Shown here: positions 45,040 to 51,882 of the stretch, piece by piece
Layout: each line of letters begins with the position of its first letter
How positions within the stretch are numbered: the stretch's first letter is position 1
DNA from: Eledone cirrhosa
Lineage: Eukaryota
NCBI GenBank assembly: GCA_964016885.1
Contig: OZ024745.1
Span: 76,818,001 to 76,882,000 of the forward strand
Length of the DNA: 64,000 bases
Reading direction: 5' to 3'
Notes under the pieces: generated by a model
The model's input: only the letters and a program-made list of their open reading frames with translations
The model's database searches: none
Told to the model about the DNA's origin: nothing
Program-made: the position numbers and the translations under genes

Positions 45040-45633
45040 ATATAATTCATTAGTGATGTTAACTAAGTGTAATAATTTCAAACTGCCTTGTAAACGTTTG
45101 TGTACTCAACTTGAACGAACATTACTTAATAGCGTACTGATATACCTACCAACAAAAATGAAGTGATTTAAAGTGCATGGATGTTTTCAACTTTGATAGG
45201 TTAGCACAATAATTATGTCAGGGGCACACCCATGTTGACAAGTAATTTAATCTATATATTGATTAATGAGACTAAATTGTATGTTTTAATGTCAATAATA
45301 TAAAGATTAAATGCTTATACATTCATAAACAGAGAAAAATATACTTCGTGTATGTTGCTTTAAGAAAATAGAATTTTCAATATTCAATTTAATTAAAGTA
45401 ATATAACGTATACGACTAAAAATATCTATAATTATCTAAGAGGAAATAACTCATATTAATTCAGGGGAAATAACTCCTGTATCATTTAAAATTTATATAT
45501 ATTATACACACACACACATATATATATATTTGTGTGAGTCCCGGGTTCAAACGGGGGTAACCACAGTAAGTAAGGCACTCAATGCATTAGTAGAGTGTGC
45601 ACAACAAATTTAATATAGAAATGGCTTTTAGAG

Positions 45634-45673
45634 GACTTCCTGATGATTTCCTTTGAATGAAACAGTTCTAGTC
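45634..45673 (+). ncRNA. Degenerate minimal hammerhead motif in a short inter-microsatellite module
   Basis: gact..CTGATGA-tttc cttt gaat-GAAA-cag-tt..agtc; stem III and inner stem I imperfect. Confidence 0.45.
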
Positions 45674-46624
45674 ATGTAGAAGACACCACCCCTCTCTCTC
45701 TCTCTCTCTCTCTCTCTCTCTCTCTATATATATATATATATATATATATATATATATATATATATATATATATACATTTAAGTTTGTTGGTTCACCACTG
45801 GATAGAAGTTGTCATTCCGTGCAGTGTATCATGATGTGGTGTAGGAAAAGCACTCGACGTTACGCAACTCATCCATCTTTGATGTTGAATCATATTGGTG
45901 GTGCAGGAACGGAGTTAATTGTTATTGAGTGAAATGGCAGTAGGCCGGACTAGCGAAAATCCTTCAAAGTTTTATTACTACAAACACTATATACATGTCA
46001 GTGGACAGGTTACGTAGGATACTGGTGACATTATCAGGTGTATATTGCATAATAGTTATATGCTAAAGGAATAAAGGTAAACACAATGCAAGAGGCTATA
46101 AAGAGAGAAAGGACAGACAAAAAAACAAAAAAATATTTGCCTCGAAGGCGATCACACATACACACACACACATATATATATACATATACACATACATATA
46201 CGTATATATATATGCATATATATATATATAAAGCGATGAAATACCAATGATGGTTGGAAGATCACCGATGAAGGACTAACTTTATTCATATATATATATA
46301 TATATATATATATATATGCATATATATATAGGCATATATATATGCCTATATATATATATATATATACATATATATATATATGCATATATATATATGCCTA
46401 TATATATATAAATATATATATATATACATATATATATATGTGTATATATATACATACACACACACACGTGTTATATATATGAATTTTTAAATTAATAATT
46501 CTTCCCTTAGTCGATAGTTCTGTATTTCCTAAATAGGGGAATCCATAAAATTTTGATTAATCTTATGACTACTAAATGTGATCTGTCAGATTCGCTTTCT
46601 TTTCTATCTCAGATAGCTCCATAG

Positions 46625-47020
46625 ATTATTTAATGTTGTTTAGCCTTAGGTCAGTCTTCTGTGTGAGTGTTTTTCTGTGAAACATATACATATATACATC
46701 AGGTCCGAACACAAAATAACCAAACTTCCACTGTCGCTACCTCCGTCTCGACGCTCTCCCCATCTCTCACTATTAAGAGCAAATGGGGGACCCACGCGCC
46801 GGCTGCTCTGCGGCCCCGGCGGACAGAACAGAGCAGGCGTTTCCCCGGAGGACGGTGAGGAAGGGAGGCGCGTTGGAAGAACCATTCTAGCTCGCCAGGC
46901 TCACACCTGCGGGTAGCCGACTCTGTGGTGAGTAGGGAGGTGGCCCTAGGTCCAAGGACACTAGACGTCTCAATTGCTACGGGCTCGACCACAAACCTAT
47001 TAAGTTGTTCAGTGTTCTGG
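46625..47020 (-). mobile_element. CRE-clade (RLE) non-LTR retrotransposon 3' fragment
   Basis: ORF 46699..47070(-): FVVEPVAIETSSVLGPRATSLL...EPGELEWFFQRASL, continuing after a frameshift as TVLRGNACSVL (PVAVET.G..G...QR.SL...RGNA motif); GC-rich relative to flanks. Confidence 0.65.
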
Positions 47021-47384
47021 GCGCCAGGGATGGAATGCAATGCCGATGACATAGAATACGGAAAATTCATCTTTCGGTTGGTGGGTTGCTCAGTACATTA
47101 TCGGCTAATTAAAATAAAAAGAGGAAACATGTTCGATGTCATTAGTTGAGATCCTGCTTTGCACACACACAACCCCAACACATTTATATATATAGTTAAT
47201 AAATGAAACAAAACAAAACACAGATTGCAAATTCACAGTTATATTAGGTTGGAGGAAGTGAATATATATATATATATATATATATATATATATATATATA
47301 TATATATATATATATATATATATAAAATATTTAAAAAATAATGAATAAAACAATGAAACAGTTCCTTATATTAAACAAAAAAAG

Positions 47385-48950: not shown

Positions 48951-50687
48951 GCCTTCCGCTGCACCTCCTCCAACCTAGTCTACGGACTTCGTTGCACGAG
49001 GTGCAGCGCGACTTATGTCGGACAGACGGGACGCCGCCTGGCGGACCGAGTCACGGAGCACCTCCGGGACATTCGTCTCGGGGGCAGTTCCCCCATCGCC
49101 CGCCACTTTGGTGGCCCTGGACACTCCGCACACCATCTCACAGTCTGTGGCCTACTCCAGTGCCACGGAACACCCGCCCATCGCCTCACGGTCGAACAAC
49201 GTACTATCTTCATCTTACAGACCCACACCCCCACGGCCTGAACTCCCCACCCTTATTCCTTTAGCGTTCGACCGCCCCCCTCCCCCACTTATCCCCCACT
49301 AACACCACTAACACACCCCTCCTTTTCACAGCCCACCCCACACTAACAATACTAACACCCCCACTACACCCCTCATCTAACCACCCTTCCCCAACTAACA
49401 TACTAACATCCCTTCCCTCCCCTCTTCTCCTCCTCCCCCCTCCTTATCACACGCACACACTTACACCACCCACCCCACACGCAACTAACATCACTAACAC
49501 CCTCCAACCCCACGCACACGTACCCACACACCCTCGTACACCGCCAACTCTACACACCCCCACTCACACCTGCATTCCACCCCTCCCCACCTCCCGTCTA
49601 CTAACACCCACTAACACCTCCTCACCAAACTACACACACACCAGTACACCACACTCCCTTCTCTCCCCACTCCACACTCACTCATCCCACTAACACCCCT
49701 ACTAATACACACACACACACACACACACACCCTCCTCACTCCAACTCTCACACCTACCCATCCTCGCCTCCCTACCATTCCGCTGACTGCTGCTATGCCC
49801 TTCCGACCACTGTCTCAGCACCCACTGACCACAGCACTCCCACTGCTGACCACTTCCTGTTGCGCGCGCACCCCACATCTCTCCTCTTCCGACCACCGCT
49901 TCTTGGATTACCCACACGCGTTTTGACTTCCAACCAAATCTCCATACATCCGTGTAACTTACCACTTTTCAACCATCCTCTAACACCATCACCTATATAA
50001 CTCACCCACACACACATCCCAAAACAAATTTTTTTATCCACACGCCACCCACACCCACAACACGCTTAAACCACACACACGTGCTTCCCACCACATATTT
50101 ACACCCTCAGCCCCCTGATTCCTCTCCCCCCACCCCCTATCCACACACGCACAGACCCTCCGACACACAAAAACACCCCCCACACACACCTTCCTGAACA
50201 TGCAACCCCGTTCTTCCCCCAACCCTCACTTTCACATACACACACACACACACACACACGCACACCTAACCACACACACCACCTTCAGCCCTCCTCGCTC
50301 GGACACCCCGTCTCCCTCTCCCCACTCCACCCGCCTCCACCTCTACTCACCCCACACCCTTCCACCACCTGTTTACCCCCCTTTTAATTTCAGTTTATTT
50401 TGATCATGCCTTTATTTTTAAATGTTCTCATTCCTTGTATTTTGATCATGCTTTATTTTTATTTATTATTTATTATATTTTTGTCTTTATTTGTTAATTT
50501 TTCATTCGCACCGTTTCCTTTCGCTATATGTCTCTCCACCACTCCCCTACACACCTTTTGAACTCTTACCTGAAGAAGGGCTTATGCCCGAAACGTCGTC
50601 CTCCACCTACCCCCCACTCTCCTGAGCGTGAATCTAATAAACATTTGTCGTACTGCCTCTCTGTTCTGTCCCTGTTCAATTTTTTAT
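48951..50687 (+). mobile_element. Neptune-like PLE 3' fragment: GIY-YIG C-terminus, long C/A-rich 3' UTR, hammerhead, flanked by (TA)n
   Basis: FRCTSSNLVYGLRCTRCSATYVGQTGRRLADRVTEHLRDI...PIARHF...EQRTIFILQT then, after a frameshift, HGLNSP (stop 49264); AATAAA 50635-50640. Confidence 0.85.
50568..50599 (+). ncRNA. Minimal hammerhead ribozyme motif of the Neptune-like pLTR
   Basis: CTGAAGA-a-gggc ttat gccc-GAAA-cg-tc; palindromic acgt stem III; GUC triplet; stem I only about 2 bp. Confidence 0.65.
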
Positions 50688-51273
50688 TATATATATATAT
50701 ATATATATATATATATAACAAAGGAAATGTGGTAGGAACCAGGTGGACCATAACGCACCAAAGTACTCAATACTTAGGGTAGTAGAGTGGGTAATAGGAA
50801 CGAGTAGGACCCCGACGGCTGAGCTCAAGCCGTTTCGACGGCTAATTCTGGACGGAATTAGCCGTCGGGGTCTTACTTGTTCCTATATATATATATATAT
50901 ATATATATATATATATATATATATATATATATATATATATATTTATATATATACATATACATACACACTCATTTACATATGTACGTATGGGCTATATCGA
51001 ATATTTATAATAATGTTCGATTCGTTTGTAAACAAAACAAAAGCCCCGATTTGAAGCTGCGCCGTGCTGGGGACTGATCGTCACCTGGCTTTGATGAACA
51101 ATCAACATTTATGTATCAGTTGTGCTAGGGCGAGAAATAAAATTCAAATTTTATTTTTAATATTCGGCAAGGCCAGCTGTAACTCGCTCGGTATGCAAAT
51201 GAGGCTACTCAGCCGATGTGTACTTAAGAAAATACTATATATTTTCAATCGTTGAACAGACTGGCAGAGATAT

Positions 51274-51316
51274 ACAGTCCTGATGAAGGGTAATGATCTA
51301 GAAACATGTTGATTGT
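51274..51316 (+). ncRNA. Minimal hammerhead ribozyme
   Basis: acagtc-CTGATGA-agggt aatg atcta-GAAA-catg-tt-gattgt; 6-bp stem I, palindromic acatgt stem III, GUU triplet. Confidence 0.78.
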
Positions 51317-51882
51317 TCCTCAAAGCCAGTGTTGAACAAACAGGTGACGATTGGTCATCGGCATAGCATAGCTTCAAATCGGGCCGTTTGTTTACAAACA
51401 AATCGAACATTATTATTAGTGTTCGATATAACCCATACGTATATATGTATATATGTGTGTGTATGTATATATATATGTGTGTGTGTGTGCGTGTGCAGAC
51501 TTAAACACACACACACACACACACACACACACACACACACACGCACACACACACACGCACACACACACACATACATATATATATAGGGAAAGAGAGAGAG
51601 AGAGAGAGAGAGAGAGAGAGAGAGAGAGAGAGAGTCTGCGGTGTTGAAACCGAGGAGGCCACTAATCATGGGAGTACTCGATGCATGGGGAGATGTAAAA
51701 TCCTGACCACAGCGCCAAGTGGTTTCGGATTGTGAAAAGACTTGCTGAACACACTAAACCTCTTAGCTGGCGCCGTGGTCGGGGTTTTACATCTTTCCCT
51801 CTTTCTCTCTCCCCCTCCCCTCTCTCTCTGTATGTATGTATGTATGTATGTATGTATGTATGTATGTATGTATGTATGTATG

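What the first reader, a model, noticed from the sequence alone, without database searches (positions are those of the whole stretch)
45500..51800. Hammerhead-rich island: short, mutually different ribozyme modules stacked between (TA)n tracts
Seen within about 6 kb: hammerhead or hammerhead-like cores at 45634(+), 47385(-), 50568(+), 50821-50866(-, partial), 51274(+) and 51691(-, degenerate), each in a separate module bounded by microsatellites; only one module retains coding sequence. Most share a palindromic stem III, GUU triplet and a non-canonical first pair of stem II (C.A, A.A, U.U). Inference: microsatellites act as a landing pad for several PLE families, and some 150-800 bp modules may be dedicated non-autonomous ribozyme retroelements (retrozyme-like) mobilised by PLE RT/GIY-YIG, rather than mere truncations. 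This is my best candidate for an undescribed system in the window.
Basis: partly seen in the sequence, partly recalled or inferred. Interest (0 to 1): 0.75.

Follow-up and report, generated by a model that had tools for sequence, protein, structure and literature searches.

The report
Pile of Penelope transposon ribozyme ends
This 6-kb stretch is a pile-up of broken-off ends of several jumping genes (Penelope-like elements) plus one copy of a small non-coding repeat, each carrying a whole or partial, likely self-cutting RNA motif, in a genome where such motifs turn up about every 14 kb, so it is known biology rather than a new system.

Summary
The six hammerhead-like sites are real and are type I motifs or pieces of them, but only three are complete, and the cluster is not a new system. 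Four modules (45534, 47322, 48944, 50718) are 5'-truncated, mostly mirror-joined 3' ends of four autonomous Penelope-like element (PLE) families whose RT/GIY-YIG frames I found elsewhere in the genome; a fifth (51635) is probably an older one. One module (51105-51502) has no ORF and belongs to a non-LTR retrozyme-type family; a relative forms a 17-unit array. Complete motifs occur 57 times in 780 kb of evenly spaced genome samples (0 in shuffles), so 2-3 in 6.3 kb is only modestly above background. Palindromic stem III plus GUU holds for 2 of 6 sites. PLE hammerheads, U3-A8 cores, microsatellite bias, tails, inverted arms and PLE-derived retrozymes are all in print. Less ordinary: in two families nearly all copies stop inside the ribozyme (54 of 59; 70 of 74), giving 130-200-bp palindromes, and one locus joins a retrozyme arm head-to-head to an autonomous PLE. 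The scan has already noted two-armed retrozymes and oversized hammerheads on other DNA of this genome. Cleavage and expression are untested.

The parts
45534..45690 (.). M1: two-armed 3' end of a Nematis-like PLE family (clade name recalled). Left arm 45534-45637 is the inverted 3' end with tail; right arm carries the hammerhead 45636-45682(+), predicted cut after 45678 (GUA).
   Evidence: (sister-subfamily ORF in L354/L355/L350); 19,114 exact core matches
45776..46150 (.). Dispersed repeat, unidentified; no hammerhead found
46233..46287 (+). 55-bp piece of another dispersed repeat; no complete hammerhead
46700..47160 (-). 3' end of a non-LTR element with a restriction-like endonuclease remnant (CRE-like, label recalled); no hammerhead
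   Evidence: relatives L235, L213 translated
47322..48624 (-). M7 main arm: 3' UTR and pLTR of a young autonomous Nematis-like PLE, internal TA/CA tracts included; hammerhead 47385-47538 with 115-nt stem II, predicted cut after 47395 (GUU)
   Evidence: (741-aa frame in L182)
48623..48705 (+). M7 second arm: inverted tail extension of the same element
48720..48875 (-). Short 3' piece of the M13 retrozyme family, no ribozyme; 95% inverted match to 51105-51242
48944..50688 (+). M11: 5'-truncated young Neptune-like PLE (clade name recalled): GIY-YIG remnant to about 49260, C-rich 3' UTR, hammerhead core at 50570 with 2-bp stem I
   Evidence: (L188)
50718..50884 (-). M12: two-armed 3' end of a third Nematis-like PLE, truncated inside stem II; keeps GAAAC, stem III and GUC only. 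Parent ribozyme mostly has a U3-A8 core and a 54-nt stem II.
   Evidence: (695-aa frame in L352)
50947..51104 (-). Inverted second arm of the M13 insertion
51105..51502 (+). M13: one unit of an ORF-less retrozyme-type repeat with an internal microsatellite; minimal type I hammerhead 51274-51316, predicted cut after 51310 (GUU)
51635..51793 (.). M14: decayed two-armed 3' end of an old family that shares the tail motif of M1 and M12; family core reads UUGAAAA in 9 of 12 hits; no intact ribozyme here; parent ORF not found

Best explanation
The stretch is a stack of independent insertions into simple repeats: four modules are 5'-truncated 3' ends of autonomous Penelope-like elements, a fifth likely is, and one is an ORF-less hammerhead repeat that was likely copied in trans by Penelope enzymes. 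Inferred mechanism: the GIY-YIG endonuclease cuts AT-rich DNA, reverse transcription starts at two fixed sites near the RNA 3' end (short end and tail end), one on each side of the break, and the two incomplete cDNAs are joined head to head. Every insertion brings its pLTR hammerhead and leaves microsatellite that serves as the next target. In families whose ribozyme has a stable stem III (M1, M12, M14) copying usually ends inside the ribozyme, so the relics are 130-200-bp palindromes that look like MITEs but are PLE stubs.
For: Shown: ORF-bearing parents for M7 (L182), M11 (L188), M12 (L257/L352) and the M1 sister subfamily (L354, L355, L350); RT and GIY-YIG motifs (Pfam hits weak, below cut-off). 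Ragged 5' and fixed 3' ends: M11 21 of 30 copies end 215-1517 nt from the 3' end and 9 run off the locus; M7 starts are scattered over about 1.5 kb. Two alternative 3' ends in M7, M1, M12 and M13, matching the PLE tail of PMC8557442 and the two RT starts of PMC11167929. Microsatellite adjacency 39 of 51 against 25%. M13: of 90 loci (some overlapping), 8 have a PLE frame within 1.5 kb, of unrelated families and positions; a relative (73% identical over 170 nt) forms 10 forward plus 7 inverted units, spaced 482-492 nt in L234; compensatory changes in all three helices, 98% of cells paired against 24-43% for slid controls. L314/L411 joins an M13 arm head to head to a truncated autonomous PLE with no repeat between. 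Truncation pile-up; varied junctions, 16 words in 29 M12 copies and 10 in 10 M1 copies.
Against: No cleavage or RNA data. M13 5' ends do not pile up at the cut site (1 of 30 at +9, 1 at -11). No parent ORF for M14. For the window's own M1 subfamily only upstream UTR, not an ORF, was seen (L300). Breakpoints from BLAST can be shortened by subfamily divergence. The covariation comes mostly from two subfamilies, so few independent events. The chimeric locus is 1 of 90. The stem III correlation rests on 3 families against 2. Clade names are recalled, with no reference tree.
Confidence: 0.85

Rival explanations
1. The short palindromic modules (M1, M12, M14) began as truncations but now spread as their own non-autonomous families, copied from short master copies.
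For: Short forms dominate: 18 of 18 M1 and 23 of 24 M12 arm segments in the random sample end in or next to the ribozyme; extrapolated copy numbers are tens of thousands (13 and 18 copies in 780 kb); some junction words recur five times.
Against: Junctions are varied; 15 of 40 core-anchored M1 segments run 45-700+ nt upstream into the parent UTR; most M12 stubs have lost the catalytic box, so they cannot self-cleave; one arm ends at the short end and the other at the tail, as in fresh PLE insertions.
Confidence: 0.2
2. The cluster is one coherent, selected ribozyme island or a composite mobile unit.
For: 7 family copies in 6.3 kb against a mean of 0.65 per 10 kb; the best of 78 random segments had 5.
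Against: The families were defined from this window; by an unbiased descriptor several random segments have 3-7 complete motifs; ages differ from 100% to about 75% identity between copies; orientations are mixed; three of six motifs are incomplete or lack stem I; no other locus showed the same order of modules.
Confidence: 0.03
3. The palindromes are MITEs of a DNA transposon and the hammerhead likeness is incidental.
For: Long terminal inverted repeats and TA flanks.
Against: The arms are unequal, turn round at varied points and continue into PLE UTRs and ORFs; helices covary.
Confidence: 0.02

Closest known systems
pLTR hammerheads of metazoan EN+ Penelope-like elements (Cervera and de la Pena 2014, PMC4209133; parts 1-2 of 4 read)
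   Same: Type I motifs in pLTRs; most copies single and tied to truncated PLEs; pairs on opposite strands; extra base at the 5' side of stem II; palindromic stem III; U3-A8 core variant; a 2-bp helix I variant.
   Different: Here several families have stem II regions of 49-115 nt and three have a stable hairpin stem III, which the text I read describes for fungal and protist rather than metazoan PLEs. Its supplements were not read.
EN+ PLE insertion anatomy, Neptune and Nematis clades (Craig et al. 2021, PMC8557442; Frangieh et al. 2024, PMC11167929; passages read)
   Same: 5' truncation, inverted truncated arm, tail at one end, AT-rich or microsatellite targets, C-terminal GIY-YIG with a Cys-rich linker.
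   Different: Tails here are 60-150 nt rather than 30-40; truncation piles up inside the ribozyme in two families.
Metazoan non-LTR retrozymes (Cervera and de la Pena 2020, PMC7229834, passages; Li, Clavereau and Pollet 2026, bioRxiv 10.64898/2026.07.22.740005, parts 1-2 of 5)
   Same: ORF-less repeat with one type I hammerhead per unit, as monomers and tandem arrays; PLE origin proposed.
   Different: Unit of about 400-490 nt with an internal microsatellite; the window copy is a lone monomer with an inverted arm; circular RNA not tested.

Membership tests
EN+ Penelope-like element (M1, M7, M11, M12) | Single ORF with PLE-type RT and C-terminal GIY-YIG | tested here: met
   Parent frames in L182, L188, L352, L354/L355; Pfam RVT_1 E=2e-4 and GIY-YIG E=2e-4, both under the curated cut-offs, and 3 of 5 proteins had no such hit
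EN+ Penelope-like element (M1, M7, M11, M12) | pLTR with hammerhead flanking the ORF, direct or inverted | tested here: met
   L181, L182, L350-L352, L354; only the 3' copy was seen for M11
EN+ Penelope-like element (M1, M7, M11, M12) | 5' truncation, inverted arm, optional tail | tested here: met
   M11 showed truncation but no inverted arm in 30 loci
EN+ Penelope-like element (M14) | ORF-bearing parent | tested here: inconclusive
   L343/L363 extends upstream into UTR-like sequence, no ORF found
Neptune / Nematis clades | RT phylogeny with reference elements | not testable with these tools
   No reference PLE set on hand; labels recalled from motif patterns; three parents are 43-47% identical to the window's 608-aa frame, L188 22%
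Type I hammerhead | Conserved core boxes with three helices and NUH | tested here: met
   Met for 45640, 47528, 51280; not met in the window copies at 50836 and 51726; stem I of 2 bp at 50570
Type I hammerhead | Self-cleavage | not testable with these tools
   needs an in vitro assay
Non-LTR retrozyme (M13) | No ORF; unit of a few hundred nt | tested here: met
Non-LTR retrozyme (M13) | Tandem units each with a complete hammerhead | tested here: inconclusive
   Met for the related family (17 units, L361/L234); for the window's own subfamily only monomers, partial tandems and inverted pairs were seen
Non-LTR retrozyme (M13) | Expressed as linear and circular monomer RNA | not testable with these tools
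   needs northern blot or divergent RT-PCR

The most novel reading that the evidence does not exclude
The pLTR ribozyme sets where Penelope reverse transcription ends: stable hammerhead helices stop the enzyme and let two cDNAs, started on either side of the break and sometimes from two different RNAs, join there. This would explain some 100,000 MITE-like palindromes in this genome, and the retrozyme-PLE chimera at L314 would be a direct genomic record of a Nematis-type PLE mobilising a retrozyme in trans.
Probability: 0.3. Interest if true: 0.5.

Novelty: new member of a known kind. Interest (0 to 1): 0.27.

Why it matters
As a system it is ordinary. As a resource it has some use: the genome may hold on the order of 200,000 complete type I hammerheads (57 per 780 kb) in dozens of families, including young identical copies, U3-A8 cores and very long stem II regions, which is good material for testing what PLE ribozymes do. 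It also warns annotators that short TA-flanked palindromes here are PLE stubs, not MITEs. If truncation at the ribozyme and two-RNA chimeras hold up genome-wide, they bear on the open questions of how PLEs finish an insertion and which enzyme moves animal retrozymes.

Tried and rejected
Rfam scan of the window gave no hammerhead hit, only microsatellite noise. My first fold of the 45640 motif (GUU, one-base loop) was dropped once family copies showed stem I covarying around a GUA cut. The top-hit lists suggested fixed boundaries for M1 and M12; this was ranking bias, and pattern searches found long parents. A cut-site signature in M13 5' ends was looked for and not found. One search used a reference contaminated with microsatellite and timed out; it was redone, whose arm-concordance regex matched nothing and was redone. 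Paper searches: 'hammerhead + U3A8' gave 0, yet the variant is in PMC4209133; searches pairing hammerhead with octopus or cephalopod listed only PMC8557442 and a twister paper; the octopus repeat paper PMC13282606 has 0 occurrences of 'ribozyme'. PMC3088659 was seen only as a search listing; the 2017 paper on small PLE hammerhead dimers was not held, so long or unusual stems may be described there or in supplements I did not read.
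Full report
Setting. The window lies at G000:C5:76818001-76882000 in a 3.0-Gb animal genome; a cephalopod is my guess from recalled repeat types, not a tool result. The stretch 45500-51800 is rich in dinucleotide repeats, but not unusually so: 10 (TA)8+ tracts here, and 31 of 60 evenly spaced 10-kb samples have 10 or more.

Observation. A descriptor scan and folding place the motifs as follows. Complete: 45636-45682(+), 47385-47538(-) with a 115-nt stem II, and 51274-51316(+). 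Core intact but stem I of 2 bp: 50570(+). Partial: 50814-50836(-) has no CUGANGA box, and 51635-51793 has no intact arm. Palindromic stem III with GUU applies to two sites; the others have GUA or GUC, three of them with a hairpin stem III. Rfam detects none.

What each module is. M7 (47322-48705) is the 3' end of a young family (40 of 40 scored hits 99-100% identical). Its 5' ends are scattered, it has a short end and a tail end, the TA/CA tracts at 47640-48624 are internal, and long copies carry an RT/GIY-YIG frame. M11 (48944-50688) is very young (40 of 40 identical over 189 nt); 21 of 30 copies end 215-1517 nt from the 3' end and 9 run off the locus; L188 holds the parent frames. M12 looked fixed among top hits, but a pattern search found copies that continue through a complete ribozyme into a UTR and a 695-aa frame. 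That ribozyme has a U3-A8 core in 11 of 16 hits and folds as its own MFE. M1 likewise continues upstream, and a sister subfamily's pLTR leads into a PLE frame. M14 shares their tail motif and mostly has a UUGAAAA core, but I found no ORF. M13 differs. Its copies start and stop within one unit of about 400-490 nt, none of 90 loci showed an ORF in pLTR position, and a relative forms a head-to-head array of 10 plus 7 units, each with a ribozyme. Between the two subfamilies all three helices show compensatory change. The module at 46700-47160 is the endonuclease end of an unrelated non-LTR element.

Is it an island? Using the window's own families, 51 copies lie in 780 kb (78 samples); the best 6.3-kb stretch there has 5 against 7 here. 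That comparison favours the window, because the families were taken from it. An unbiased descriptor gives 57 complete motifs in the same 780 kb, 0 in shuffles, and 2 in this stretch; P is about 0.05-0.08, lower if the motif missed by the rule is added. Copies sit next to microsatellites (39 of 51 against 25%) and track (TA)n density. So the cluster is real, at the upper end of a common pattern.

Mechanism. Shown: parents, truncation patterns, two 3' ends, inverted arms, microsatellite adjacency. From the literature: a PLE protein cuts both strands at AT-rich DNA, extends both, and starts at two internal RNA sites that define the tail; ribozyme cleavage was not needed in vitro (PMC11167929 passages). 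Inferred: each two-armed insertion is two incomplete cDNAs joined head to head. In M1 and M12 the joins fall in the ribozyme: 54 of 59 and 70 of 74 arm segments in loci not selected for those families, against 8 of 14 M7 and 4 of 5 M11 segments that run more than 40 nt past the core. Junction words are varied, which favours repeated independent events over a few masters, though it does not exclude them. M13 5' ends show no pile-up at the cut site, so the DNA copies give no sign of cleaved templates. Two hints of two-RNA events: the window's M12 has arms of different subfamily variants (1 of 30), and L314/L411 joins an M13 arm directly to a truncated autonomous PLE whose own 3' end and ribozyme lie at the far side. 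Both are single cases.

Comparison with known work. PMC4209133 (parts 1-2 of 4) already reports genome-wide minimal hammerheads as relics of truncated PLEs, opposite-strand pairs, U3-A8 cores and a 2-bp helix I. PMC8557442 (passages) covers truncation, inverted arms, tails and microsatellite bias. PMC7229834 (passages) and the 2026 preprint (parts 1-2 of 5) define non-LTR retrozymes and argue for their PLE origin. My searches did not list a description of cephalopod PLE ribozymes or of truncation at the ribozyme; one key paper was not held and no supplements were read. Earlier notes of this scan describe two-armed retrozymes and oversized hammerheads elsewhere in this genome; I took the term 'two-armed' from them.

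Verdict. These are new members of known kinds; interest 0.27.

Noticed in passing
window 6465-9400: Two-armed Nematis-like PLE with a 608-aa RT/GIY-YIG frame (6994-8820) and hammerheads with a 90-nt stem II at 6628(-) and 9238(+); short end on one side, tail on the other.
   Followed up: partly
window 52266-54321 (-), 3' end near 51884: Broken non-LTR element with RT (Pfam RVT_1, E=2e-12) and a restriction-like endonuclease motif, ending in a (TGTA)n tract; another microsatellite-associated insertion beside the cluster.
   Followed up: no
L314:131-1700 and L411: Retrozyme arm joined head to head, with no repeat between, to a 5'-truncated autonomous PLE; candidate two-RNA chimeric insertion.
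   Followed up: partly
L361:5660-10000 and L234:1-3500: Head-to-head array of 17 hammerhead units related to M13.
   Followed up: partly
L209, L244: Further tandem hammerhead repeats of about 310 nt met in the random sample.
   Followed up: no
random sample L191-L250, L356-L358, L366-L380: Many hammerhead families with stem II regions of 49-104 nt and several with U3-A8 cores.
   Followed up: no
tails of M1, M12, M14, M7: A short shared motif about 45-50 nt before the tail end in otherwise different families; a possible protein-binding or start signal.
   Followed up: no
window 26671-27168: Piece of a mitochondrial carrier gene (weak Pfam hit, E=0.007), so the cluster may lie in or near a host gene.
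   Followed up: no
window 37141-37861 and 27721-28073: Tandem arrays with 32-bp and 41-bp units.
   Followed up: no
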